Assembly (NCBI GenBank): GCA_021801125.1
Contig: JAJYYI010000017.1
Location: 33,095 to 97,094 of the forward strand
Source of the DNA: Deltaproteobacteria bacterium
GTDB lineage: Bacteria > Desulfobacterota > Binatia > Binatales > Binataceae
Direction of reading: 5' to 3'
DNA length: 64,000 nucleotides
The notes beneath the pieces were generated by a model. It was given only the letters and a program-made list of their open reading frames with translations, was not told the origin of the DNA and ran no database searches. This document shows positions 1,174 to 52,933 of the stretch, in pieces. Every line of letters begins with the position of its first letter. Within the stretch, counting starts at the first letter, position 1. The translations under genes were made by a program, and so were the position numbers.

Positions 1174-4100
1174 CTACGACGAATCGCGCGCCGCGGCCGA
1201 CGCAGCCGGTTTCGTAGGCGCGTCATTGACGGATTCAGAATCGATTCCATCCGCGTTCGAGGCCACGGGTTCAGCGTCGGGCGCGGTGTGATTCGTCCCA
1301 CTCGATTCAATCCCGTCGCCATTGCCGGCCGCCACCACGGCTTCGACCCTGCTCGACGCGCGGAAGACGGCACGCGGCGCCGAAGAGCGCTGCGCCAGCC
1401 CCACAACTGCCTGACGCATCACCTCGGCCGCCTTGCGATAAACGCCGTACGACTCGCCATCGCTTGCCGCGCGAACGAGCGCCTCGTTGGTTATAACCGG
1501 ACCGATTCGCAATTCCACTGGGTAACGACGGGGTAGCAACTGCCCCTTGCCAAGAGCGTGATAAGTGCCCTGCACATATATCGGCAGCACATCACACCCG
1601 CTGCGCAGCGCAAGATATCCGGCTCCGCTCTTGAACTCCTGAATCGCGCCGTGCGGCGTGCGCGTACCCTCAGGAAACATCAGGACGCTCGCCCCACGAG
1701 CCAGCTTCTCCAGCGCCGCGTTCAGCGAATCGAGCTGCGCTCCCTCGCGGTCAAACGGAATGAGGGGACTGAAGTTAGCGGCGAGGAACCGTCGCGCGGA
1801 GCTGTTGAAAAAGTAATCCTTCGCCGCGAGCACTACCAGTTGCTCGCCAAGCTTGCCCAACGCGGAGCGAACCAAAACAAAGTCCAGATGGCTTGCGTGA
1901 TTCGCGATCACCAGCACGTTGCGGTTCGCGGGAATATTGCCCCGCCCCAGAACCCGCGGCTTAAGCCATCGGTCGACCGTGCTCTCAATCGCGCCTGCCA
2001 GGATGCTCTGCCCGACGCGGCGCAAGGCTTGCGGCAGGGCCGGCGTGTAGGGCTCGGCGAACGCGGCGTAAGAGGGAAGGCGCGGCCGGCTTGAGTCGCG
2101 AGCGATCAGCCCTTGAAGGTCGCCCGCCGTGCTGATCGCCGTCAGTTGATCCGCGGTTGGAGCCCATCCGCTATGCTGCGCGATTATCTCGGCCAACTCG
2201 GCGAGCGCTAGCGAATCAAGTCCGAGGTCCTCGAACAGACGCGAACCGCTGGAGATCTCGCGCGCGCCTCCGGCAACTTGCTCCAACGCCTCCGCCAGCC
2301 AGCTCGCCAGGTCGGACGTTCCGCCGGCCTCTGCGCCGGCGCTTTTTGCCACCATCGCGCGCAATGTCGAGGCCACTTCAGCGCGTTTAACTTTCCGTGT
2401 CCGTGTGCGCGGAAGCTCACCGCCCGTGAAGCGCAGAATATGCACCTGCTTGTACGGCGGCAGCGCGCGATTTACTTGGTCGAAATGCGCGCGAATCTTT
2501 TCTTCGACGGCGCGCTGGCTCTCGCCATGGGCGTAGGCCGGGACCACCAGCGCTGCGGCCTGCTCGCCCGAACCGACCTTGAGCGCCACGATCGCAAGCT
2601 CCTTGATCTGTGGCAAGCGTCCGTAGAACTCCTCGAGTTCGTCGATGTAGATATTGTTGCCGCCCGCGTCAACGATCACGTCCTTGCTGCGCCCGACGAT
2701 GTACAGCCGCCCGCCGTCGTCGAACCGCCCGAGGTCTCCCGTGTGCAGCCAACCATCCTTGAGCGCCTGCTCGGTGGCGCTTTCGTTGCGGAAGTAGCCT
2801 TTCATCACGTTGCCGCCGCGGACCAGGATCTCTCCGGTCTCCCCGCCTTCGACCGCCTCGAGCTTGACCTCCAGGCCCGACAGCGGTTTCCCGACCGAGC
2901 CCAGCCGCAAATCCTCGTCCGGACGGGCCACGCTCACCACGGGCGCCGCTTCCGTCAACCCGTAGCCTTCGAGCAGTCTGAGGCCAATGTCGTTGAAGAA
3001 CTCGGCGGTCTCGCCCGGCAGCGCAGCACCGCCGCTTACCGCCAGACGCAGGCGCCCGCCGAGGGCCTCGTGCAGCGGGCGAAAGATGAGATTTCCCAGA
3101 TCGAGCCTCAGGTCCCGCTCCAGCGAGTGATTGAGCGTCCGCAGGCGCTCAAACGCCCCCTTGAACACCGTCCCGCGCCGCTCAATCTGCTCGAGGATTC
3201 GGCGGTGGATGGCCTGCCATATCGCGGGCACGCCTATCAGGGCCGTCGGCTTGACATCCGCCAGCGTTCGGCCGAGCGTTGCGGCACTCACGTTGCGCGG
3301 GTACACGATGTGCGCGCCGCTGGCCAGCGGCAGCAACATGCCGCACGTGAATTCGAAACAATGATGCAGCGGCAGCAGGGAGAGCACCGTGTCGGTCGGA
3401 TCGAGTTCGAAGATTCGCGAGAGCATCAGCACTTCGGCCGTAAAGTTGCCGTGCGTGAGCATCGCGCCTTTGGCCGAGCCGGTGGTGCCCGAAGTGAACA
3501 CCACCGAAGCGAGCGTGTCCTTGCTCCATTCGACCTTCGCCGGCGTTTTGCCGTGCAAGACAAACGGCCGGCGCAAATCCTCGAACGCCATCTCAACCAG
3601 CGCCGTGCCGCACGCCTCAGCCATCGGGCCCAACCGCTGCCGAAAACTGGCTGAACACAGCGCGGCTGTCGGCGAGGCGACGCGGCAGATAGCGCGCAAC
3701 TCGTCCGTCGAAAGCATGGGGTCCAGCGGCACCGCCACCGCTCCCGCACCGATCACCGCGAAGAAGCCCAACACCCAATCAGGAGAGTTCTCTCCCGCCA
3801 GTAATACCCGATCGCCTGTTTGAACGCCGCGGCTGGAAAGCATCAAGCTCGCGCGGCGCGCCGCGTCTCGCAGCTCCCGGTAGCTGAGCGTCGAGTGATG
3901 GCCTGAAGAATGACGCCAGCTTAGCGCCGGCTTCGCGCCGTGGCGCTCGGCGCTTTCATCCAACAGGTCGATGAGATGCCTGAACCTGAGCGGCTTCGCC
4001 CGCACGCGCCCTCGCGTGTGCAAATCCAAGCGCGGAAAAATGTGGCGGCGCAACCCTGGGATGTGGATGTTAACCCAGTAGTCGTGCCAATCCATCTTGT

Positions 4101-5622
4101 CAGGATCGAAGCGATGGACCTCGGCGTCAGCCGGACTTAACCGCTTATATAAAGCGCGAATGTTGCGGCTGTGGAAAATATAGGAGAAGTCCTGGATGTA
4201 CGGGCGATAAATATCAATGAGCGACTGCCCCAGACGAATGCGATCACTGGTTTGCGCCGCCCATCGCTCCAAGCGCCTTACCGCCGGCGCATCGCGCCCC
4301 ATCAGCAGCTGTCCCGCGCGGGCGGTCTGCGCCAACGCCCTGGGCAGCCCCCAGATCGCCGCCTCGTAGGTTTTATGGGAAACGGCGATGGGCTCCAGGT
4401 GCTGTGTGAGCAACTTTCCGGCGGTCTCACCATGCTCGCGCTGATGGCGCCGGTTGGCCACGGCGGTAAGCTCGATCAAGCGCTCCATGCGGAACGGGTT
4501 GGAGTCCGAAGAGCCGAGCTGGTAAATCGGTTCGTGACGACCCAGCAGCAGCGCAGCCAGAACGGGAAACATGGCGTGCGCCACGAGGTCCACCGGAATG
4601 ACGTCCAATATCAGCTCGCGGCGCGCGGGATAAAAGCGGTATCCCTCGCCCGACAGGTAGGTGAGCGGCGCGCTGGTGTTGACCCCTTGGTTCCATCCAG
4701 GGAAGGGATCTCTTATCGCGCTCTCGATTACCGCCGGGCGCACCACCGTCACTTTGAGCGTGTCGCGCGCGGCCAATACCAACTGCTCGCCCAAACTCTT
4801 GCTGTAGCTGTACGTATTGGGCCATCCCCAGTAAAGCGCGCGGCTGCGCCCTTCGCGCTTGAGTTCCTCCTCGAGCTGTTGCTTGGGCAACAGTTCTGCG
4901 CCGTCGCGCGCTTCGTCAAGGGCGGCGCCGTTTTCATCCTCGGGTTCCCTTGCGGCGCTCGACTCGATGCGCGATATCACCGCCTGGGCTTCGCGAATTT
5001 CGCGCTTCAGGCTGAAACGGCGCGCGCCCGGCTGCGGGCACCAATCCACCGGGATGTCGTCCTCATGCCGGTGGCCGTCGGCCGCGCCGGCAACGTAACA
5101 GGTCGAAATATGGAGCATCGGCGCACGTATTTTGCGGCAAAAGTCGAGCACATTGCCCGCCCCCAGCGTGTTAATCGCCAACGCCTTGTTAAGCGGCGCG
5201 TCGAAGTTCACCAATCCCGCGCAGTTAACGACCGCGTCTATCTGACCGCGCGTGAAGCGCGTCTGAGAATCAGTGACAAGGCCAGGCTCCGTGATGTCGC
5301 CGCATACGACGGTCAGCTTCTCCCGTACCCACCGGTCGAACGAGTCTCCCATCTGCTCGCGCAACGGGGCAAACGCGGGCGAGGCGAGCACCTCGCGCTC
5401 CAGCCGCTTGGGCCCCGAGCGCTGATCGCCGCGAACCAGCAGATAGACCTGTTCGACCTCGGGATGCTCGCGAAGAAGCAGATATAGAAAGACCTTACCG
5501 AGAAAGCCGGTAGCCCCGGTAAGCATGATGCGCCGTCCGCGGAAGATCTTTTCCAGCGGTGGAAGGCGGTCTCGTTGAGTTTTTCGTTGACCGACGCGCA
5601 ACAAATTATTGGACATCCGCAA
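1174..5622 (-). CDS. Multidomain lipid-biosynthesis enzyme resembling ElbD. Domains: N-terminal NAD(P)-binding fatty-acyl reductase (approx nt 5535-4065), acyl-AMP/CoA ligase (approx nt 3960-2385), phosphopantetheine carrier (approx nt 2325-2115), C-terminal PlsC-type acyltransferase (approx nt 2025-1425).
   Basis: TGATGFLGK Rossmann motif with the male-sterility/NAD_binding_4 region. AMP-binding core (FTSGTTGSAKGAMLTHGN ... GYGLTE ... HTGDLG). PP-binding LGLDSLALAEL (DSL serine). AGPAT motifs NHASHLD and FPEGTR. The frame is a continuous 1482-aa ORF. Confidence 0.85.
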   Translation of the reverse strand: MRMSNNLLRVGQRKTQRDRLPPLEKIFRGRRIMLTGATGFLGKVFLYLLLREHPEVEQVYLLVRGDQRSGPKRLEREVLASPAFAPLREQMGDSFDRWVREKLTVVCGDITEPGLVTDSQTRFTRGQIDAVVNCAGLVNFDAPLNKALAINTLGAGNVLDFCRKIRAPMLHISTCYVAGAADGHRHEDDIPVDWCPQPGARRFSLKREIREAQAVISRIESSAAREPEDENGAALDEARDGAELLPKQQLEEELKREGRSRALYWGWPNTYSYSKSLGEQLVLAARDTLKVTVVRPAVIESAIRDPFPGWNQGVNTSAPLTYLSGEGYRFYPARRELILDVIPVDLVAHAMFPVLAALLLGRHEPIYQLGSSDSNPFRMERLIELTAVANRRHQREHGETAGKLLTQHLEPIAVSHKTYEAAIWGLPRALAQTARAGQLLMGRDAPAVRRLERWAAQTSDRIRLGQSLIDIYRPYIQDFSYIFHSRNIRALYKRLSPADAEVHRFDPDKMDWHDYWVNIHIPGLRRHIFPRLDLHTRGRVRAKPLRFRHLIDLLDESAERHGAKPALSWRHSSGHHSTLSYRELRDAARRASLMLSSRGVQTGDRVLLAGENSPDWVLGFFAVIGAGAVAVPLDPMLSTDELRAICRVASPTAALCSASFRQRLGPMAEACGTALVEMAFEDLRRPFVLHGKTPAKVEWSKDTLASVVFTSGTTGSAKGAMLTHGNFTAEVLMLSRIFELDPTDTVLSLLPLHHCFEFTCGMLLPLASGAHIVYPRNVSAATLGRTLADVKPTALIGVPAIWQAIHRRILEQIERRGTVFKGAFERLRTLNHSLERDLRLDLGNLIFRPLHEALGGRLRLAVSGGAALPGETAEFFNDIGLRLLEGYGLTEAAPVVSVARPDEDLRLGSVGKPLSGLEVKLEAVEGGETGEILVRGGNVMKGYFRNESATEQALKDGWLHTGDLGRFDDGGRLYIVGRSKDVIVDAGGNNIYIDELEEFYGRLPQIKELAIVALKVGSGEQAAALVVPAYAHGESQRAVEEKIRAHFDQVNRALPPYKQVHILRFTGGELPRTRTRKVKRAEVASTLRAMVAKSAGAEAGGTSDLASWLAEALEQVAGGAREISSGSRLFEDLGLDSLALAELAEIIAQHSGWAPTADQLTAISTAGDLQGLIARDSSRPRLPSYAAFAEPYTPALPQALRRVGQSILAGAIESTVDRWLKPRVLGRGNIPANRNVLVIANHASHLDFVLVRSALGKLGEQLVVLAAKDYFFNSSARRFLAANFSPLIPFDREGAQLDSLNAALEKLARGASVLMFPEGTRTPHGAIQEFKSGAGYLALRSGCDVLPIYVQGTYHALGKGQLLPRRYPVELRIGPVITNEALVRAASDGESYGVYRKAAEVMRQAVVGLAQRSSAPRAVFRASSRVEAVVAAGNGDGIESSGTNHTAPDAEPVASNADGIDSESVNDAPTKPAASAAARDSS

Positions 5623-7267
5623 CCACCAGCGGTGGCAGGTGCAGGTAGGTGATGGTCGCCGAGCGTCCGATGTCGCCGGTGGCCATCGCGATAGCCTCTT
5701 CGACCGTGTCCGCCGCTTCCCAGCCTAGCCTCGCGGCGACCTGAGGATCTTCGCAACCAGCCGCGATCACGCGCCCCAGATGCTTGCGGCCGGGCTCGCC
5801 CCAGTACCACATGTAAAACGGATGCACGCCGTGGTACGCGTGACCGTACCGATACATATGAATGTACGTAGGATTGGCCGCAAACTCAGCTTCAAAGCGC
5901 TTGGACAGCTCCTCGGAGTCCGTGGTCTCTGCCAGGCATCGATGAAAGAACTCGATGTAGCTCGGATGATGCTCCGGGTGAAATTCGTTGCGCAGCGGGT
6001 GACATATGATCATCGTTCCGCCCGGGCGGACCAGAGGTTTGTACCGGTACATGTTGAACAGGTAGCCAAGCCCGGTACACTGCACCAGCACCGGATTCAT
6101 TACCGAATTGACGTTGTAAGGACAGACATACGGGACGCCGACGAGCAGAACGTCGGACTGTCCGCTGACCGGCACTGCGTATTGCTGGAACACGCGGTCT
6201 AGAGTTTTGCGATGCACGGCCTCGGTTTCTCCGGCCCATACGCCGGTCAACTCGTACGGCGCGGAGTAATGGTGCAACAGTTCGCGGCGCGTCCGATTAG
6301 ACATGTTCGCCAGCGTCCAGTTGAAGGCGCGAAGCCGCATGCGGTCCCATTCGTTGAACTCGTCTTCGTTCTTCTGCAGGAAGTCGAAGAAGCCCGAGTA
6401 CATGCGATTGTTGATCGACGTCTCAACCGTGAAGATGTTGAGCTCGCGACTGACGACCTTTCCAAGCCTGTCGACCGTGCTGTGAAGCGCCGAGCGATTC
6501 GGATCCATGTAAGAATGACATCCGCGCAGCGTGGCCGGATTATGGTGGTAACGCAAACTCTGATACGGCGCGAGGCCTACCGCCACCGACTTGTGCCCGC
6601 CATCCATCGGCACCAATGTCAAATTGACGTAGATCACCAGGTCGGAGTCGGCGGCGCGCTTTGAGAGCCACACTTCCTCGCCGTGCTCGGTCTTGCCGAG
6701 CATCGCGAGGTCGCCCGGGTTCTCGCCGTCGAAATTGTATAAGCGGTCGGGCCAGAACTGGGCAAAGGCGCGCTCGCCCACGGCGCGGCGAATCTCCGCG
6801 GCGGTCATGCGGCGATGCAGCGAGGTCGCTATGATGATGTGCACGTCGTCGACGCCGTAGTCCGCCAGCGTCTGCAGCACGATGTTGAGCACGCGCTCAC
6901 GCGCGTCGGGCCGCTGCATCGGCGGCAGCGGCAAGCTGATATCGTCGACGGCGATCGTCACCCGCATGTTCGGGTTAAGCTGCGCGAACAGCGGGTCGGC
7001 GTTCTCGGGGTGAAGCAGCGCGTAACGGATCGCGACCTCGGGATCGGGCAGCCCGTCCATCGGCGGCGGCGGATAAACGACGCGCGTGCCAGGCGGCAGC
7101 TTTTCTTCGAGGAATTCGTCGCCGTAAGCGATCAGGCGAGGCTTGGAGCGGCGCGTAAGAGTCACCACGAGATCACTGCGCGCGCCGATCTCATGAAGTA
7201 GTTCGGCCCGTTTGAGTTCCCTGAGTTTCGCTTCCGGAGCTGCCATTCGTCTGGCCACCGCGTACAC
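5606..7267 (-). CDS. LarA-family protein (lactate-racemase-like, putative nickel-pincer-nucleotide-dependent 2-hydroxyacid racemase/epimerase homologue), 553 aa
   Basis: An ATSLHRR motif (AT[GS]xHR) is followed 75 residues later by GGHKS. A His-His pair sits 15-16 residues after that Lys (KSVAVGLAPYQSLRYHH). This matches the His108/Lys184/His200 spacing of L. plantarum LarA as I recall it. The gene overlaps the ElbD-like gene start by 17 nt, which suggests translational coupling. Confidence 0.6.
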   Translation of the reverse strand: MYAVARRMAAPEAKLRELKRAELLHEIGARSDLVVTLTRRSKPRLIAYGDEFLEEKLPPGTRVVYPPPPMDGLPDPEVAIRYALLHPENADPLFAQLNPNMRVTIAVDDISLPLPPMQRPDARERVLNIVLQTLADYGVDDVHIIIATSLHRRMTAAEIRRAVGERAFAQFWPDRLYNFDGENPGDLAMLGKTEHGEEVWLSKRAADSDLVIYVNLTLVPMDGGHKSVAVGLAPYQSLRYHHNPATLRGCHSYMDPNRSALHSTVDRLGKVVSRELNIFTVETSINNRMYSGFFDFLQKNEDEFNEWDRMRLRAFNWTLANMSNRTRRELLHHYSAPYELTGVWAGETEAVHRKTLDRVFQQYAVPVSGQSDVLLVGVPYVCPYNVNSVMNPVLVQCTGLGYLFNMYRYKPLVRPGGTMIICHPLRNEFHPEHHPSYIEFFHRCLAETTDSEELSKRFEAEFAANPTYIHMYRYGHAYHGVHPFYMWYWGEPGRKHLGRVIAAGCEDPQVAARLGWEAADTVEEAIAMATGDIGRSATITYLHLPPLVVADVQ

Positions 7268-44229: not shown

Positions 44230-44664
44230 AGCTGAATATCCCCTTCTGGTCTCCCTTCCTGCGGTTTTATTAAAGAATCAGACGCCTGGCGAACGGCGCG
44301 CCCACGGTCAACGGCTGACCGCGAGACGGCGCGGCCTGGAAATCGTTCGGCAATAAAACTCCCGCTAGTATAGCAAAAGTTGCCTCGGATGAAGGCGTCG
44401 CGGGCCGACCCCACCATTGGTTCAGGGCCTTATCGCATCCTGGCGCAGCTCGCGCCGCAGGGCCGGGGCGGCCTCATAAGGGCTATCTGCGCCGCCGAGT
44501 GGGCGCTGAAGGCGGACTCGCTCTCTGGCATGCTTCGTACCCCGGCCAGGCCGTGAGTGACGAGGGCAAATTGAGGTGATATCCTCTGCGTAAAACTGAC
44601 CTGGGAGCCTGACCGCGCTGTTACGAGCGCGCCGCAAGTCGCAGACACCGGGAGACGAACAGTC

Positions 44665-45033
44665 ATGGTGAAGCAGAAAAAGCTGGCCCGCTTTTTGTGG
44701 AAATCGACCTGAAGTTCATGCCGCAACGCAAGAAGTTTCTTGCGCGACGAACTTAAGGTGGAACTCGATGAGCGCGATTACGTCAAACAACCGTTGTCAG
44801 TAGCCGAGTTGAAAGAACTCTTTCGCGGCCGCGACCCTCGCGATTTCCTCAACCGCAAGAGCGCGGCTTTCAAGCAGCGGGAGCTTGCGGGTAAGGACTT
44901 GAGCGCCGACGAGACGATAGCCCTGATGGCCGCCGAGCCGAATTTTATCAAACGACCCCTGATAATCGCAGGTGGCGAGATGATCGCCGGACTCGATCGC
45001 GACCGCCTTAACGCGCTGTTCGGCCGCAGCTAG
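44665..45033 (+). CDS. ArsC/Spx-family (glutaredoxin-like) reductase, candidate selenoprotein: in-frame TGA at 44710-44712 sits at the catalytic Cys position of the UxxC motif
   Basis: From the ATG at 44665 (GGGAGA 9 nt upstream) the frame reads MVKQKKLARFLWKST-TGA-SSCRNARSFLRDELKVELDERDYVKQPLSVAELKELF... This aligns with the Spx/YffB N-terminus (..Y..P.C..CRKAR.WL...PLS..EL..L) with Sec replacing the first Cys. A hairpin follows the TGA directly. The ORF track calls only the downstream TTG-initiated fragment (44740-45033). Confidence 0.55.
44712..44754 (+). promoter_or_regulatory. Putative bacterial SECIS element (extended hairpin starting 2 nt after the in-frame UGA; apical loop with GU ~25 nt downstream of UGA)
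   Basis: Outer stem AAGUUC (44712-17) pairs with GAACUU (44749-54). Inner stem GCAAGA(A) pairs with (U)UCUUGC around an AGUU loop (44728-44744). Confidence 0.45.
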
Positions 45034-46116: not shown

Positions 46117-46190
46117 AATTTCTGGACAGACGAAGCGCCTGTGTAGTCAACGGTTAATAGGACTTCATGTTCGGGAGGAGGAAAGCATGA
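46117..46190 (+). repeat. Copy 2 of the same direct repeat. It supplies the RBS and start codon of the OMP gene.
   Basis: AAGCGCCTGTGTAGTCAACGGTTAATAGGACTTCATGTTCGGGAGGAGGAAAGCATG. It is ~85% identical to copy 1, apart from a ~27-bp insertion in copy 1. Confidence 0.5.
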
Positions 46191-47284
46191 ACGGTAAAAG
46201 GCTTGTGACCGGGTTTGCGTTGGCCGGCTTCCTATGGCTAGCCTGCGCTAGCGCGGCCAGCGCACAGGGGATCTATAGCTACAGAGGAACCAGCTTCACG
46301 CCAACGGCGCCGGTTCCGGCGAACACCGGCCTCGGGACATACTACAATTTTTTTAACAACACCGACGTCGACTCCTACGGACTCCCGGCGGGTCTCGTGT
46401 TCGGCGCATGGTTCAGCACTTACGTGAGCGACGGGGCATTCTACGGGCCAAACGGCAACAAAGTGGCCGGAGCACCTAACGGCGGAAATATTTGGGCGAA
46501 CGTGGCATGGTTCAACTGGATTTATCCCTGGCAGTTCGACACTCCAAACTTTCGCGTCGGCTTCAACGCTTTCATGCCGATCATCGCCGAAAGCGTCGAA
46601 GTTGCTGGTCCGACGGAATTTTGGTTCAGCCCTCTTGAAATGTTCTACTCGTATCACCAGTTCCGCTTCCTGCGTGACTCCACGTTCTTCGGCCCCTACA
46701 TCTCGCTGCCGGTTGGTGGTGGCTTCGGCTTCACCCCTAACAACGGAGCCGTCAACCAGTACAACTTCGCGTGGTTGATGGAAGGTTGGTATCAGTTCCA
46801 GCACATGGATGAGCTGGCGCTGGGCAACATGGGACTCGGTTGGCTCAACACCTTGGAGTTCCAGCCCTGGTTCTCCTATACCCATCAGCTGAACTCCACA
46901 CCGAATCTGCCGGCAAATGCCGTGTTCAGCACCGCTGGTGCCGCCCAGTTGGGAATTCCGGGAAACGCGCTCGGCGGTTACATGCCCGGGGACGACATCG
47001 ACGCGGGTGGTATCTTCAGCTACGGGCTGAAGCAAATAAACCCCGCCCTCAAGAACTGGCGTGTCGGCATGGTGTTCGACAGCAACTTCAGCGTGTTCCA
47101 AAACACCTGGGCCGGTGCTCCGATCAAAAACACAGCGTTCGAAATGGTGGACGTAGGCCCCAGCATCCAGTACTCCAAAGGCGACTTCGTACTGTGGTTC
47201 TACTACACCACCAACGTGCATACGGAGAACCAATACGGCTACCAGCAGTTCTTCCTCCAGCTCTACTACTTCTTCAATCTGTAA
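46187..47284 (+). CDS. Putative outer-membrane beta-barrel protein (porin-like), with signal peptide
   Basis: Signal peptide MNGKRLVTGFALAGFLWLACASAASAQG. Aromatic/Gly/Asn-rich sequence with alternating hydrophobic residues. C-terminal aromatic cluster (LQLYYFFNL). The ORF track's upstream start (46052) precedes the RBS and is unlikely. Confidence 0.55.
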   Translation: MNGKRLVTGFALAGFLWLACASAASAQGIYSYRGTSFTPTAPVPANTGLGTYYNFFNNTDVDSYGLPAGLVFGAWFSTYVSDGAFYGPNGNKVAGAPNGGNIWANVAWFNWIYPWQFDTPNFRVGFNAFMPIIAESVEVAGPTEFWFSPLEMFYSYHQFRFLRDSTFFGPYISLPVGGGFGFTPNNGAVNQYNFAWLMEGWYQFQHMDELALGNMGLGWLNTLEFQPWFSYTHQLNSTPNLPANAVFSTAGAAQLGIPGNALGGYMPGDDIDAGGIFSYGLKQINPALKNWRVGMVFDSNFSVFQNTWAGAPIKNTAFEMVDVGPSIQYSKGDFVLWFYYTTNVHTENQYGYQQFFLQLYYFFNL

Positions 47285-49779: not shown

Positions 49780-49918
49780 CCGGCGGCCGCCGGCCGCTGA
49801 TAGCCGGGTCCCGCGCAAGGGAAGGCCGCGAACCCCGCCAGGTCCGGAAGGAAGCAACGGCACCGGCTCAATCTCTGTGCCGCGGGGGTGCCTGGCTATC
49901 ATTTGACCGGCGGCGCCG
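49780..49918 (+). ncRNA. ffs: Signal recognition particle RNA (4.5S / ffs-like); ends approximate
   Basis: CAGGUCCGGAAGGAAGCAACGGCA matches the universally conserved SRP RNA domain-IV motif (..GGUCCGGAAGGAAGCAGC..). The 5' and 3' arms pair (GCUGAUAGCC with GGCUAUCA, and GC-rich extensions). Its location immediately upstream of dnaX is classic. Confidence 0.65.
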
Positions 49919-49944: not shown

Positions 49945-51957
49945 ATGGCCGAGGACGCTTCATCCCATCTGGTACTGGCGCGCAAATGGCGACCAGGGCG
50001 CCTTGAAGACCTGGTGGGCCAGGAGCACGTCACGCGCATCCTAAGACAGGCGCTGGCGAGCAGGCGCGTGGCTCACGCCTTTTTGTTCTGTGGTATTCAC
50101 GGCGTCGGCAAGACCTCGGCCGCGCGAATTCTCGCGCGATGTTTGAATTGTACCCGCGGACCGACCTGCGAACCGTGCGGCGAATGCCAGCCATGCGTGG
50201 AGATCAGCGAAGGGAGGTCGCTGGACGTCGTCGAGATCGACGGCGCCACATATCGCAAGATTGACGATGCTCGCGCGATTATCGAAAACCTAGCTTATCG
50301 CCCAGCCCGCGACCGATACAAGGTCTACATCATCGACGAAGCGCATCAGCTGACCGATCAAGCCTTCAACGCGCTGCTGAAAACGCTCGAGGAGCCGCCC
50401 GCGCACGTCAAGTTCATCCTGGCGACCACCGAGCCGCAGAAGATGCCGGAAACGATCCTGTCGCGCCTCCAGCGCTATGACTTCCGGCGTATCCCATCAG
50501 CGCAAATAGTCGCGCGTCTGGGTGACCTTGCCAAACGCGAGGGCGTTACCGTAGAAACGGGCGCGCTGACGCTGATCGCGCGCGAGGCCGGTGGCAGCAT
50601 GCGCGACGCTGAACGCATGCTCGAGACGGCGGTTGCGATGGCGCCCGACGGCGTGCGCGAGAGCGAAGTTGCCGCCGCGCTGGGCGTCGCCAGCCGCAGT
50701 CGAATCCTAGCGCTCGTCGAGACGATTTTAAACCGCAACCCCGCGCGAGCGTTGCACGCCGTGCGCCAGGCTTACACTGACGGTGCGCGAGTCGAAGCGC
50801 TCGGCCATGACTTGTTAGAGACGATACGCAATCTTGCGCACGCCAAGCTGAGCGCAGGGCAGGGCGGCGAGGGGCTGCTTGACACCCTGCCGGATCAGGA
50901 GGCCACCGACCTGAGCCGACTTGCTCAAGCACCGTCGCTGCGTGACATCACGCGGTTGTTCCGACTGATGGCTCAGGCGCAAGAGGAGATTCTCCGCTCG
51001 CCATACCCTGAGCTGTTGTTGGAAATGGCGGTGGTACGGATGGCCACCCTGGCGCCGGTCCTGGATGCGGACGAGCTGATGCGCGCGATCGAGCGAGCGC
51101 AAGCCGCGCAGCCAGCCGACCGGCCGGACGCGCGCGCCCGCTCCACGCGGAGCAATTCGGCGCTGCCGACGGGCTTAAGAGATTCGGCCGCGAGGAGGAC
51201 CGCGAGCGACTCGGCCCCGAACATTCCCTCGACAGGGTCGCCGCAGTTGAATAATCCGACCGAAAGACCGCAACAATCGGCGTCGCCGCAGACCCAGCCC
51301 GCCGAGAGCGTTGCCGGGCTCGACGCGGATCCGACGCAGCGGCCACGTGGCGTACAGCACATTCGCGTTGAAGGCGAGGTGAAGGCCGACGCGCCGCGTC
51401 GCGTGGCAGACGAGGCGTCGATGCCTGATCTACCTGAGCTTCGCGAGTATATACGCTCTAAGAAGGGAGCTCTTGCGGCCTTTATGGAACACGGCGCAAG
51501 CCTCGCGCTCGAGGGAGACACGCTCGTCGTGACCGCCCGCGACGGCATCTACGTGCGCTACTTTAACGATCACCTCAAAACATTCGCCGAGCTCGCCTCG
51601 CAGTTCTATAGGAAGCCGATCGCCGCAAGGATGAGGACCGAACCCTCGACGGCTGGTGGCGCTCCCGACGTGGCTGCGCCCGGGACCGTATCGAGCGCCA
51701 ATGATGAAGACCTCTACGATGAAGCGCAGACAGCCTCGACCGCGCCGGCGAACGCTCACGCGGAATCCGACGCCAAGATGCGCCAAAACAATCGCGCATC
51801 CAGAAGCGAGGCGCTGAAAGCCGACCCGGTGGTGCGGATGATCCTTGACCAACTCGACGCTCGATTGGTGAGCGTCCGAAGCCGCGCGCCCCGCGCCGAA
51901 ATTGAACCAGCAGAGCAAGCGGGCCAGGCAGTAAAAGGGGGTTCTAACCGTGGCTGA
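49945..51957 (+). CDS. dnaX: DNA polymerase III subunits gamma/tau
   Basis: AAA+ clamp-loader motifs (GIHGVGKTS Walker A, Zn-module CxxC...CxxC, DEAHQLT, SRLQRY sensor). Confidence 0.9.
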   Translation: MAEDASSHLVLARKWRPGRLEDLVGQEHVTRILRQALASRRVAHAFLFCGIHGVGKTSAARILARCLNCTRGPTCEPCGECQPCVEISEGRSLDVVEIDGATYRKIDDARAIIENLAYRPARDRYKVYIIDEAHQLTDQAFNALLKTLEEPPAHVKFILATTEPQKMPETILSRLQRYDFRRIPSAQIVARLGDLAKREGVTVETGALTLIAREAGGSMRDAERMLETAVAMAPDGVRESEVAAALGVASRSRILALVETILNRNPARALHAVRQAYTDGARVEALGHDLLETIRNLAHAKLSAGQGGEGLLDTLPDQEATDLSRLAQAPSLRDITRLFRLMAQAQEEILRSPYPELLLEMAVVRMATLAPVLDADELMRAIERAQAAQPADRPDARARSTRSNSALPTGLRDSAARRTASDSAPNIPSTGSPQLNNPTERPQQSASPQTQPAESVAGLDADPTQRPRGVQHIRVEGEVKADAPRRVADEASMPDLPELREYIRSKKGALAAFMEHGASLALEGDTLVVTARDGIYVRYFNDHLKTFAELASQFYRKPIAARMRTEPSTAGGAPDVAAPGTVSSANDEDLYDEAQTASTAPANAHAESDAKMRQNNRASRSEALKADPVVRMILDQLDARLVSVRSRAPRAEIEPAEQAGQAVKGGSNRG

Positions 51958-52276
51958 ACTCGACCTCACAGCCCTGTTCAAGCAAGCACAAGCCTTGCAG
52001 GCAAAGCTTCAGGAAATGCAGGAAGGAGCGGCGAACAGGACCGTCGAGGCCGAGTCCGGCGGCGGGATGGTACGCGTGGTCGTGGATGGTTCGATGCGCG
52101 TGCGCAGCGTAACCGTCGATCCGGTGCTGCTTTCAAACGGCGACAAGGCGATGCTCGAAGACTTGGTGGTGGCAGCCGTCAACGAAGGGCTTCGCCGCGC
52201 TCAGGAGATGATGAGCGGCGAGTTCGGTAAGCTCGCCGGAGGGTTGCAGGGCGTTAAGTTGCCGTCAGGCGAGTGA
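51950..52276 (+). CDS. ybaB: Nucleoid-associated protein YbaB/EbfC
   Basis: 108-aa protein with FKQAQALQAKLQEMQE ... VVVDGSMRV pattern, between dnaX and recR. Confidence 0.85.
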   Translation: MAELDLTALFKQAQALQAKLQEMQEGAANRTVEAESGGGMVRVVVDGSMRVRSVTVDPVLLSNGDKAMLEDLVVAAVNEGLRRAQEMMSGEFGKLAGGLQGVKLPSGE

Positions 52277-52303
52277 GCCCGGACCGGGCCTGCCGTTTCA
52301 ACC

Positions 52304-52933
52304 ATGGCGGAAAACCATCGTAACAGCGAAGGCCTGCCGTCGGCGATGACGCGCTTGGTGCGCTCGCTCGCGCGATTGCCGGGAATCGGGGAAAAAACGG
52401 CCACTCGTCTTGTATTGGTGTTGTTGAGTTGGCCGCGCGAGCGCGTGATCGAATTAGCCGAGTCGCTGCTTGAGATGAAAGAGCGCGTGGGTCTATGCAC
52501 GTCATGCTTTGGCCTGTCCGACACCGCGACCTGCAACGTGTGCGCGGATGCGCAGCGTGATCAGGGCTCAATCTGCGTGGTCGAGACACCCGCGGACCTG
52601 CTGGCAATAGAACGCGCAAGGGCCTTTAAAGGCGTTTACCACGTGCTGCACGGCGCGCTCGCTCCGGTTCAGGGTATCGGACCGGATGACCTGAAAATAA
52701 GCGAGTTAAGGGAGCGTATCGAACGCAACCCCGCCGGCACTGTGCGCGAGGTTATTATCGCGACCAACGCCACCGTCGAGGGCGACGCTACCGCGCTTTA
52801 TTTGGCTAAGGTACTTAGACCGCTGGGCATAAAGACCACACGGCTTGCGCGCGGCCTTCCGACCGGCAGCGATCTCGAATACAGCGACGTAGCCACGCTG
52901 AGCGCGGCGCTGAACTATCGGCGCGAGCTTTAG
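52304..52933 (+). CDS. recR: Recombination protein RecR
   Basis: HhH (LARLPGIGEKTA). C4 zinc finger (CTSCFGLSDTATCNVC). Toprim domain. Confidence 0.85.
   Translation: MAENHRNSEGLPSAMTRLVRSLARLPGIGEKTATRLVLVLLSWPRERVIELAESLLEMKERVGLCTSCFGLSDTATCNVCADAQRDQGSICVVETPADLLAIERARAFKGVYHVLHGALAPVQGIGPDDLKISELRERIERNPAGTVREVIIATNATVEGDATALYLAKVLRPLGIKTTRLARGLPTGSDLEYSDVATLSAALNYRREL

What the first reader, a model, noticed from the sequence alone, without database searches (positions are those of the whole stretch)
44665..45033. Candidate selenocysteine-containing ArsC/Spx-family reductase hidden behind an in-frame TGA
An ATG at 44665 (preceded by GGGAGA) opens a frame reading MVKQKKLARFLWKST, then TGA (44710-12), then SSCRNARSFLRDELK... 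This continues into the ORF the track starts at a TTG (44740). With the TGA read as Sec, the N-terminus becomes a UxxC version of the ArsC/Spx/YffB redox motif (CxxCRKARxWL in Spx). Sec falls exactly at the catalytic/nucleophilic Cys position, which is the usual pattern for bacterial selenoproteins. A two-tiered hairpin follows directly (AAGUUC 44712-17 pairs with GAACUU 44749-54; inner stem GCAAGA / UCUUGC around an AGUU loop). That is the position and shape expected of a bacterial SECIS, with a GU in an apical loop roughly 25 nt after UGA. Without Sec read-through the gene looks like an N-terminally truncated pseudogene lacking its active site. An LMW-PTP/ArsC-type gene sits 1.4 kb upstream, but no arsR/arsB/acr3 is present, so a thiol-redox role is more likely than arsenic resistance.
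Basis: partly seen in the sequence, partly recalled or inferred. Interest (0 to 1): 0.75.

Follow-up and report, generated by a model that had tools for sequence, protein, structure and literature searches.

The report
Miscalled selenocysteine ArsC/Spx-family redox protein gene
A small thioredoxin-fold gene annotated as a 97-residue stump is almost certainly a 122-residue selenoprotein whose in-frame TGA encodes selenocysteine at the active-site position; this class of selenoprotein is already catalogued, so it mainly corrects an annotation in a soil bacterial lineage.

Summary
ATG 44665, in-frame TGA 44710-12, stop 45031-33, and a stable hairpin directly after the TGA (z = -3.9) are all present.

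The read-through protein is a complete ArsC/Spx-family domain with a U-S-S-C motif. Across the window plus 91 related loci (mostly Binataceae/'delta-proteobacterial' MAGs and soil metagenomes), the same codon is TGA in 84 and TGT/TGC in 8. The ~10 codons upstream are conserved as protein with synonymous variation.

The apical hairpin, CGCAAGA-[A/G]GU[U/C]-UCUUGCG, is nearly invariant in 73 distinct Sec-form sequences, even at synonymous sites. It uses rare GCA/AGA/UUG codons, and the loop GU is invariant. Cys forms mostly lose the stem or the GU. TGA is an ordinary stop for neighbouring genes.

So this is a genuine selenoprotein gene, miscalled from TTG 44740. ArsC-like UxxC selenoproteins have been listed since 2006-2008 (Zhang & Gladyshev), so it is a new member of a known kind.

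It lacks the Arg residues of arsenate reductase and falls below the Spx/MgsR cutoffs, so a selenenylsulfide redox role is inferred, not shown. No selA/B/C/D lies in the window or in the flanks of 91 related loci (about 0.76 Mb with the window), so the rest of the genome remains to be checked.

The parts
44650..44655 (+). Shine-Dalgarno-like GGGAGA, 9 nt before the ATG
   Evidence: Read directly from the sequence.
44665..45033 (+). Full coding sequence of the selenoprotein: 122 codons plus TAG, product MVKQKKLARFLWKST-U-SSCRNARSFL...GRS
   Evidence: Translation. Pfam ArsC matches residues 13-116. Orthologue alignments.
44665..44709 (+). N-terminal 15 codons omitted by the gene callers. They encode strand beta1 (ARFLW) and the loop leading to the active site.
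   Evidence: ARFLWKST is conserved as protein, with synonymous variation, in 78 distinct Sec-form sequences. In the AF2 model of Cys orthologue P0002, beta1 is residues 3-8.
44710..44712 (+). In-frame TGA, read as selenocysteine (U16). It aligns with Cys10 of Spx and Cys12 of E. coli ArsC.
   Evidence: TGA in 84 and TGT/TGC in 8 of 92 loci, window included. Protein alignments.
44719..44721 (+). TGC codon for Cys19, the resolving Cys of the U-x-x-C motif
   Evidence: Invariant in all homologues. Aligns with Spx Cys13.
44727..44744 (+). Apical SECIS-like stem-loop: CGCAAGA (44727-33), loop AGUU (44734-37), UCUUGCG (44738-44). G44735 and U44736 are the invariant loop GU.
   Evidence: Fold results. 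The element is nearly invariant in 73 distinct Sec forms, with loop NGUY in 73 of 73. Synonymous entropy is 0-0.12 at codons +5 to +10.
44712..44754 (+). Lower tier of the hairpin in this window: AAGUUC 44712-17 pairs with GAACUU 44749-54. The register is not conserved in the family.
   Evidence: MFE structure. In other loci a different lower helix forms (CCACCU/AGGUGG type, 79% of cells paired, one CG/GC-covarying pair).
44740..44742 (+). TTG wrongly used as the start codon by ORF and gene callers. It is actually Leu26, inside helix alpha1 and inside the 3' arm of the hairpin.
   Evidence: The 95-97-aa database entries all start at this position.
45031..45033 (+). TAG stop codon

Best explanation
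Positions 44665-45033 encode a 122-residue thioredoxin-fold protein of the ArsC/Spx/MgsR superfamily (PF03960). UGA 44710-12 is decoded as selenocysteine. A bacterial-type SECIS inside the coding sequence directs this: an apical 7-bp stem with an NGUY tetraloop, 14 nt after the UGA. It is presumed to recruit SelB-GTP-Sec-tRNA(Sec) to the ribosome.

Sec16 sits at the N-cap of helix alpha1, in a U-S-S-C19 motif equivalent to the CxxC of Spx. The protein most likely cycles between a selenol/thiol state and a selenenylsulfide state. It would then act as a thiol-disulfide oxidoreductase or as a redox switch. It is not a glutaredoxin-coupled arsenate reductase.

Shown here: the frame, the Sec/Cys homology, conservation on both sides of the UGA, RNA-level constraint on the hairpin, and the fold. 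Inferred: SelB dependence, actual Se incorporation, and the biochemical role.
For: - Cys orthologues carry Cys at the TGA position within an otherwise identical RFLWKST-C-STCRNARSFL.
- Across 92 loci (the window plus 11 genome and 80 metagenome loci), the codon is TGA in 84 and TGT/TGC in 8. Nothing else occurs there.
- Codons -7 to -1 keep R-F-L-W-K-S-T while their third positions vary. The upstream segment is therefore translated in this frame.
- In 78 distinct Sec-form genes, codons +5 to +10 (N-A-R-x-F-L) have normalised synonymous entropy of 0-0.12, against about 0.4-0.9 elsewhere. They use GCA/AGA/UUG, whereas the same genes otherwise prefer GCC/GCG, CGC and CUC/CUG.
- The loop is NGUY in 73 of 73 distinct Sec forms. 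Only 4 of 9 distinct Cys forms keep the GU, and most break the stem. Hairpin dG is -10.2 +/- 0.8 for Sec forms against -7.9 +/- 2.5 for Cys forms, Mann-Whitney p = 0.007.
- The window hairpin has z = -3.86 against shuffles.
- E. coli fdhF has loop GGUC with G23/U24. Here the loop is AGUU with G26/U27.
- TGA terminates 5 of 16 neighbouring genes, so the code is not reassigned.
- The AF2 model of Cys orthologue P0002 (pLDDT 93) places Cys12 at the N-cap of helix 13-25, after strand 3-8. The 97-aa call would therefore lack beta1 and most of alpha1.
- The closest solved structures are Spx, YffB and ArsC-family proteins.
- ArsC-like UxxC selenoproteins are documented in the literature.
Against: - No selA, selB or selD (tblastn with the E. 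coli proteins) and no tRNA-Sec were found in the window or in the flanks of 91 related loci, about 0.76 Mb with the window. This is uninformative rather than negative, but presence of the machinery in this genome remains unverified.
- The upper stem shows almost no compensatory covariation because it is nearly invariant. Whole-structure covariation is not significant: 32 of 500 shuffles reach the observed score.
- bSECISearch itself was not run, and Rfam has no matching family.
- Four of nine Cys forms retain a reasonably stable hairpin.
- No other selenoprotein candidate was found in the window.
- There is no experimental evidence for Se incorporation or for any activity.
Confidence: 0.87

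Rival explanations
1. The gene is an N-terminally truncated remnant or pseudogene. The real product is the 97-aa protein starting at TTG 44740, or there is no product, and the TGA is a genuine stop.
For: Gene callers at JGI, NCBI and ENA-97-aa products for about 95 database clusters. No Sec machinery was seen in the sequence available.
Against: The TGA and the 10-15 codons before it are conserved in 84 loci that have diverged to about 65% protein identity, with synonymous variation upstream. The truncated product would lack beta1, the active-site motif and most of alpha1. The TTG lies inside a conserved helix codon (Leu26) that is CTG in some homologues.
Confidence: 0.03
2. The UGA is read through without selenocysteine. 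This could be near-cognate Cys/Trp-tRNA suppression stimulated by the downstream hairpin, or a lineage-specific code change.
For: Downstream hairpins can stimulate stop-codon read-through in general (established knowledge). Sec machinery is unverified in this genome.
Against: TGA is an ordinary stop for 5 of 16 neighbouring genes. The only alternative codons at this site are Cys codons, the classic Sec/Cys signature. The invariant loop GU, at a UGA distance like that in fdhF, fits SelB recognition. The same protein family is known to include selenoproteins.
Confidence: 0.05
3. Function-level rival: the protein is a glutaredoxin-coupled arsenate reductase (ArsC sensu stricto) with Sec replacing the catalytic Cys12.
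For: The best Pfam family is ArsC, and JGI names it 'arsenate reductase-like'. U16 aligns with ArsC Cys12 and R97 with Arg94.
Against: ArsC Arg60 aligns with the invariant Asn63, and Arg107 with Leu/Phe110. TIGR00014 scores 44 bits against a cutoff of 106. There is no arsR or arsB in the window and no ars genes in the conserved neighbourhood. A second Cys (UxxC) is typical of Spx-like members, not of ArsC.
Confidence: 0.04
4. Function-level rival: the protein is an Spx/MgsR-like regulator that binds RNA polymerase, with a selenenylsulfide switch in place of a disulfide switch.
For: The closest solved relatives are Spx proteins (3L78 E = 1.8e-10; 1Z3E Foldseek E = 7e-9, TM 0.82). The best NCBIfam hit is the Spx/MgsR model TIGR01617. 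The UxxC aligns with Spx C10xxC13. In most family loci the gene follows rpoZ and an RpoH-like sigma factor on the same strand.
Against: TIGR01617 scores 59 bits, below its cutoff of 75. Spx Gly52, known to be critical for alpha-CTD binding, aligns with the invariant Asp57 next to a 2-residue deletion, and the Spx C-terminal tail is absent. The synteny may reflect only the relatedness of these genomes, and it is absent from the window itself. YffB and uncharacterised ArsC-family structures match equally well.
Confidence: 0.15

Closest known systems
ArsC-like / 'arsenate reductase 2' (cd03032, COG1393) UxxC selenoproteins of Zhang & Gladyshev (PMC1794560, 2006; PMC2398784, 2008; review PMC9312934, 2022)
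   Same: PF03960/COG1393 domain, a UxxC motif with Sec at the first position, Cys-containing homologues, and an intragenic bacterial SECIS. Prediction is by the same Sec/Cys-homology logic.
   Different: The published members come from marine metagenomes and from Desulfotalea and Desulfuromonas. This clade comes from Binataceae-like soil and sediment MAGs, where the Sec form dominates (84 of 92).
Spx (Bacillus subtilis, Streptococcus; PDB 1Z3E, 3L78)
   Same: Same fold (TM 0.82). The CxxC/UxxC sits at the same position, at the N-cap of alpha1. The RRP/KRP motif is conserved and the size is similar.
   Different: Only 20-27% identity. The score is below the Spx/MgsR NCBIfam cutoff. Gly52 is replaced by an invariant Asp within a family-specific DPRD motif. 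There is no C-terminal degron tail. Sec replaces Cys10.
E. coli fdhF SECIS (the archetypal bacterial SECIS)
   Same: A hairpin immediately 3' of the UGA inside the ORF, with a 4-nt apical loop carrying GU at loop positions 2-3 (GGUC against AGUU/GGUU/GGUC) and a similar distance from the UGA.
   Different: The GU lies at +26/+27 here, against +23/+24 in fdhF. There is no bulged U in the upper stem of the common form. The stem sequence is unrelated.
E. coli / R773 ArsC (glutaredoxin-coupled arsenate reductase)
   Same: Same Pfam family and fold. The nucleophile position (Cys12) and Arg94 are conserved.
   Different: Arg60 and Arg107 are absent. A second Cys is present (UxxC). There is no ars operon context. 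TIGR00014 scores far below its cutoff.

Membership tests
Bacterial selenoprotein gene (SelB/SECIS-dependent UGA recoding) | An in-frame UGA aligned with Cys in homologues (Sec/Cys pair) | tested here: met
   TGA in 84 and TGT/TGC in 8 of 92 loci (the window plus 91 related loci), with no other codon at the site.
Bacterial selenoprotein gene (SelB/SECIS-dependent UGA recoding) | Protein-level conservation on both sides of the UGA, in one frame | tested here: met
   RFLWKST upstream and xxCRNARSFL downstream are conserved, with synonymous variation upstream.
Bacterial selenoprotein gene (SelB/SECIS-dependent UGA recoding) | A stem-loop directly downstream of the UGA with a conserved G(U) in a small apical loop, at roughly 16-37 nt (bSECIS model, recalled from Zhang & Gladyshev 2005) | tested here: met
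   A 7-8-bp stem begins 14 nt after the UGA and the loop is NGUY in 73 of 73 Sec forms. Synonymous sites are frozen. The geometry was compared with fdhF. The bSECISearch program itself was not run.
Bacterial selenoprotein gene (SelB/SECIS-dependent UGA recoding) | selA, selB, selC (tRNA-Sec) and selD present in the same genome | not testable with these tools
   None were found in the 64-kb window or in the flanks of 91 related loci, about 0.76 Mb with the window. The rest of the 459.6-kb contig and of the genome could not be fetched.
Bacterial selenoprotein gene (SelB/SECIS-dependent UGA recoding) | Selenium actually incorporated (75Se labelling or mass spectrometry) | not testable with these tools
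   This needs an experiment.
ArsC/Spx/MgsR superfamily (Pfam PF03960) | Pfam score above the gathering cutoff, and the ArsC-type thioredoxin fold | tested here: met
   53.7 bits against a cutoff of 24, covering residues 13-116. The AF2 model of the Cys orthologue matches Spx, YffB and ArsC at TM 0.74-0.85.
Spx/MgsR RNAP-binding regulators (TIGR01617; NF002459) | NCBIfam score above the curated cutoff | tested here: not met
   TIGR01617 scores 59 bits against 75.05. NF002459 scores 48.6 against 123.
Spx/MgsR RNAP-binding regulators (TIGR01617; NF002459) | An N-terminal CxxC redox switch | tested here: met
   U16-S-S-C19 aligns with Spx C10-T-S-C13.
Spx/MgsR RNAP-binding regulators (TIGR01617; NF002459) | The alpha-CTD contact residue Gly52 and the C-terminal tail (recalled from the Spx literature) | tested here: not met
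   Gly52 aligns with the invariant Asp57 next to a 2-residue gap, and the protein ends about 15 residues before the Spx C-terminus.
Glutaredoxin-coupled arsenate reductase ArsC (TIGR00014) | Catalytic Cys12 plus the Arg60/Arg94/Arg107 triad | tested here: not met
   Cys12 aligns with U16 and Arg94 with R97. However, Arg60 aligns with Asn63 and Arg107 with Leu110. TIGR00014 scores 44 bits against 106.05.
Glutaredoxin-coupled arsenate reductase ArsC (TIGR00014) | ars operon context (arsR, arsB or acr3) | tested here: not met
   No tblastn hit for E. coli ArsR or ArsB in the window. No ars-type Pfam families were seen in the neighbourhoods. Acr3 was not searched with its own query.
Published ArsC-like UxxC selenoprotein family (GOS 'arsenate reductase 2', cd03032) | A COG1393/PF03960 domain with Sec in a UxxC motif | tested here: met
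   compared with the tables quoted.
Published ArsC-like UxxC selenoprotein family (GOS 'arsenate reductase 2', cd03032) | Direct sequence similarity or orthology to the published members (e.g. MAM02162.1) | not tested
   The published sequences could not be retrieved with the available tools.

The most novel reading that the evidence does not exclude
The family may be a selenocysteine-based Spx-like stress or redox sensor acting on RNA polymerase. In most members the gene lies in a conserved same-strand run: rpoZ, an RpoH-like sigma factor, a CinA-like gene, a secreted protein, then the Sec gene. It is followed by a convergent LysR whose best (sub-threshold) match is the 'selenium metabolism-associated LysR' family. 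If true, this would be the first selenoprotein transcription regulator. Its switch would be tuned to a different redox potential or reactivity than the Cys-Cys switch of Spx.
Probability: 0.12. Interest if true: 0.7.

Novelty: new member of a known kind. Interest (0 to 1): 0.35.

Why it matters
The finding corrects a systematic annotation error. About 95 database clusters of this clade are recorded as 95-97-aa 'arsenate reductase-like' stumps that lack their active site.

It also implies that Binataceae-like soil bacteria use the selenocysteine-decoding trait, and that in this clade the Sec form is the rule (84 of 92) rather than the exception. That gives a compact marker gene for Sec use in these uncultured organisms. 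It also supplies a well-sampled natural series of Sec-to-Cys conversions in which SECIS decay can be followed.

It does not reveal a new kind of system. ArsC-like UxxC selenoproteins and intragenic bacterial SECIS elements are both established.

Tried and rejected
- **Sec machinery.** ARAGORN found no tRNA-Sec in the window or the loci. Tblastn with E. coli SelA, SelB and SelD found nothing in about 0.76 Mb. The word-indexed protein search would only reach close relatives of an E. coli query, so I ran no further search on this.
- **Other selenoproteins nearby.** A six-frame Sec/Cys-pair scan of all held sequence was swamped by off-frame conservation in syntenic GC-rich DNA. Restricted to the window, only 44710 stood out. 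A GC3-based read-through screen was uninformative. A mini-SECIS pattern scan found no other plausible candidate.
- **Compensatory covariation.** Covariation in the hairpin is weak because the upper stem is invariant. I relied on synonymous-site constraint and the Sec-versus-Cys contrast instead.
- **Rfam.** No family matched, even at E <= 10.
- **Promoter scan.** Nothing was found in the 435-nt upstream intergenic region.
- **Neighbour-based function.** The window's own neighbours (SDR, LMWPc, NUDIX, the 365-aa ORF) are shared only with its closest relatives, so I rejected them as functional partners.
- **Literature.** A search for Sec use in Binatota/Binatia found nothing relevant.
Full report
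**Observation.** GGGAGA lies at 44650-55 and ATG at 44665. Fifteen codons follow (MVKQKKLARFLWKST), then TGA at 44710-12, then SSCRNARSFLRDELK... in the same frame to TAG at 45031-33. The mechanical ORF list starts the gene at TTG 44740 (97 aa). The JGI gene call on the source contig is the same 97-aa product (3300039716, Ga0438459_0000007, 459,601 bp; window position 44740 = contig position 77863).

AAGUUC 44712-17 pairs with GAACUU 44749-54, and GCAAGA 44728-33 pairs with UCUUGC 44738-43 around loop AGUU. The energy is -21.9 kcal/mol, against -12.8 +/- 2.4 for 200 dinucleotide-preserving shuffles (z = -3.86, none as stable).

**The read-through product is a complete domain; the annotated one is not.** With U written as C, Pfam ArsC (PF03960) matches residues 13-116 at E = 2.6e-14. 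The 97-aa ORF matches only profile positions 16-77. The closest solved sequences are Spx proteins (3L78, E = 1.8e-10; 1Z3E), then YffB (1RW1) and uncharacterised ArsC-family proteins. KST-U-SSCRNARSFL aligns with SPS-C-TSCRKARAWL, so U16 corresponds to Spx Cys10 and C19 to Cys13.

An AlphaFold model of the 72%-identical Cys orthologue P0002 has pLDDT 93 and pTM 0.82. Strand beta1 is residues 3-8, and the first Cys sits at the N-cap of helix 13-25. Foldseek returns Spx (1Z3E, TM 0.82), 3GKX, YffB (TM 0.85) and E. coli ArsC. The 97-aa call would therefore lack the central strand, the active-site motif and most of helix alpha1.

**Comparative evidence for recoding.** A protein search returned about nine full-length homologues of 115-118 aa. 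These carry RFLWKST-C-STCRNARSFLRDEL, with Cys exactly where the window has TGA. It also returned about 95 clusters of 95-97 aa that all begin at the equivalent of Leu26.

I fetched the DNA of 11 loci from GTDB species representatives. Their record titles are Candidatus Binataceae or 'Deltaproteobacteria'/'Proteobacteria' MAGs. I also fetched 80 loci from JGI metagenomes, the best of 377 relatives. Counting the window, that makes 92 loci. The aligned codon is TGA in 84, TGT in 5 and TGC in 3, and nothing else occurs there. In every TGA locus an ATG/GTG lies 10-15 codons upstream, followed by (K)(K)ARFLWKST.

In 78 distinct Sec-form genes, the residues R-F-L-W-K-S-T before the TGA are 86-100% conserved while their third codon positions vary (for example Arg CGC 33 / CGT 27 / CGG 7; Lys AAA 58 / AAG 20). 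This segment is therefore under purifying selection as protein, in the same frame as the downstream part. TGA is an ordinary stop for 5 of the 16 genes called within +/-10 kb, including the SDR, LMWPc, dnaX and ybaB genes. A genome-wide reassignment of TGA is excluded.

**The hairpin as a SECIS.** Across 73 distinct Sec-form sequences, the apical element A-CGCAAGA-[A/G]GU[U/C]-UCUUGCG-(U/C) is almost invariant. Seven sequence variants occur in total, and the loop is AGUU in 43, GGUU in 28 and GGUC in 2.

This goes beyond coding constraint. Codons +5 to +10 (N-A-R-x-F-L) have normalised synonymous entropy of 0-0.12, whereas conserved residues elsewhere in the same genes show about 0.4-0.9. The codons used are GCA (75 of 78), AGA (74 of 78) and UUG (75 of 78). 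Elsewhere the same genes prefer GCC/GCG, CGC and CUC/CUG.

Three Sec forms (L058, L059, L087) carry GCA to GCC, AGA to AGG and UUG to CUG together. This yields an alternative CAGG/CCUG hairpin with one bulge.

The nine distinct Cys-form sequences behave differently. Several break the stem (GCC CGA ... CUG). Others keep a stem but change the loop GU to GC (AGCU, GGCU). Only 4 of 9 keep the GU. Mean hairpin energy is -7.9 +/- 2.5 kcal/mol for Cys forms against -10.2 +/- 0.8 for Sec forms (Mann-Whitney p = 0.007, not corrected for phylogeny).

Classical compensatory covariation is weak. The upper stem never varies enough to show it. The lower helix used by most homologues (79% of cells paired) has one pair with CG in 22 and GC in 21 sequences, and only 32 of 500 shuffles fall short of significance by reaching the whole-structure score. 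The window uses a different lower helix, so only the apical hairpin is a family feature.

For comparison I extracted the E. coli fdhF SECIS. There the loop is GGUC with G23/U24, counting the U of UGA as 1. In the window the loop is AGUU with G26/U27, one codon further away. From established knowledge, the apical stem-loop with its GU at a fixed distance from the UGA is what SelB recognises. Rfam has no family that matches, and bSECISearch was not available.

**Sec machinery.** This is the one prediction I could not test properly. ARAGORN finds no tRNA in the window. It finds only one tRNA-Ala in all the loci. Tblastn with E. coli SelA, SelB and SelD finds nothing in the window or in the flanks of 91 related loci, about 0.76 Mb with the window.

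The window is a housekeeping region. It holds F-ATPase alpha/gamma/beta, cobyrinate/cobyric acid synthases, ispD, SRP RNA-dnaX-ybaB-recR, ftsH, tilS, dnaJ and ccmF. Absence of sel genes here therefore says little. No second selenoprotein candidate was found in the window, either by a Sec/Cys-pair scan or by a SECIS-pattern scan.

**What the protein is not.** An alignment with E. coli ArsC puts Cys12 on U16 and Arg94 on the invariant R97. However, Arg60 falls on the invariant Asn63 and Arg107 on Leu/Phe110. TIGR00014 scores 44 bits against a cutoff of 106. No arsR or arsB homologue is present in the window. It is therefore not a glutaredoxin-coupled arsenate reductase.

The best NCBIfam model is Spx/MgsR (TIGR01617), but at 59 bits it is below its cutoff of 75. 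Spx Gly52 aligns with the invariant Asp57 of a family-specific DPRD motif, next to a 2-residue deletion, and the Spx C-terminal tail is missing. Membership of Spx sensu stricto is not supported either.

What remains is a thioredoxin-fold protein with a UxxC motif at the canonical position. The most economical mechanism is a selenol/thiol to selenenylsulfide cycle, used for disulfide reduction or as a redox switch. This is inference.

**Genomic context.** In the window, the gene is divergent from an SDR-LMWPc-NUDIX block and is followed by an unannotated 365-aa ORF. These neighbours are shared only with the closest relatives (L001, L015; partly L006/L050).

In most other loci the gene ends a same-strand run:
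- rpoZ;
- an RpoH-like sigma factor (NF005143, 276 bits against a cutoff of 241);
- a CinA/MoCF-like gene;
- a secreted 216-aa protein;
- the Sec gene.

The run is followed by a convergent LysR and an acyl-CoA dehydrogenase. The 216-aa protein is adjacent in 74 loci, and the sigma factor is present in 32 of the 34 loci that have at least 3 kb of upstream sequence. The LysR's best NCBIfam hit is 'selenium metabolism-associated LysR' (NF040786), at 193 bits against a cutoff of 250. That subfamily was reported only in SelD-containing, mostly Sec-decoding organisms (PMC5322559).

These are leads for an Spx-like or stress-linked role. They may equally reflect shared ancestry of closely related genomes, and Cys forms share the same context.

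**Comparison with what is known.** ArsC-like selenoproteins are in the literature:
- 'ArsC-like' in Desulfotalea psychrophila and Desulfuromonas acetoxidans (PMC1794560).
- 'Arsenate reductase 2' (cd03032, UxxC; 42 Sec sequences against 238 Cys homologues) in the GOS data (PMC2398784).
- Both listed in the 2022 catalogue (PMC9312934).

The present gene therefore belongs to a known kind of selenoprotein. What is new is the lineage (Binataceae-like soil MAGs), the dominance of the Sec form in it, and the fact that public annotations uniformly truncate it. I could not compare it directly with the published sequences.

**Verdict.** Confidence that this is a genuine Sec-encoding gene is about 0.87. 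The residual doubt rests on the unverified Sec machinery and the lack of experimental evidence. Novelty: new member of a known kind. Interest is modest (0.35).

Noticed in passing
L095:2738-8720 (also L096, and 30-70 other loci); not present in the window: Most family members sit in a conserved run: rpoZ, an RpoH-like sigma factor with a ~115-aa N-terminal extension, a CinA/MoCF-like gene, a secreted 216-aa protein, then the Sec gene. A convergent LysR and an acyl-CoA dehydrogenase follow. The LysR's best NCBIfam hit is 'selenium metabolism-associated LysR' NF040786, below its cutoff (193 against 250 bits).
   Followed up: partly
L049/L057/L074, L102, L104, L105 (the 72-nt segment after the Cys codon): Some Cys-form homologues keep the SECIS-like stem but have the loop GU changed to GC (AGCU/GGCU). 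They look like recent Sec-to-Cys conversions with a decaying SECIS.
   Followed up: partly
L058:2582-2653, L059:839-910, L087:10022-10093: Three Sec-form loci carry three coordinated synonymous changes (GCA to GCC, AGA to AGG, UUG to CUG). These re-form the hairpin in a shifted register with one bulged base.
   Followed up: partly
window 49802-49900 (+) and 49945-52933 (+): A bacterial small SRP RNA (Rfam RF00169, 73.8 bits) lies directly upstream of dnaX-ybaB-recR.
   Followed up: no
window 29590-31596 (-): A 668-aa ORF with a thaumatin-family domain (PF00314, E = 1.8e-26, two stretches). This is an uncommon domain in bacteria.
   Followed up: no
window 1174-5721 (-): A 1515-aa fusion of a fatty-acyl-reductase-like domain (NAD_binding_4/Sterile), an AMP-binding adenylation domain, a phosphopantetheine carrier and an acyltransferase. 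This suggests a single-polypeptide lipid-building enzyme.
   Followed up: no
window 36303-38741 (+): An 812-aa protein combining Ser/Thr kinase, guanylate/adenylate cyclase and (weak) SPOR domains, according to the precomputed Pfam hits.
   Followed up: no
window 46187-47284 (+): A 365-aa ORF immediately downstream of the selenoprotein gene. It has a signal-peptide-like N-terminus and no Pfam or NCBIfam match. It is conserved (69-84% identity) only in the closest relatives L001, L015, L006 and L050.
   Followed up: partly
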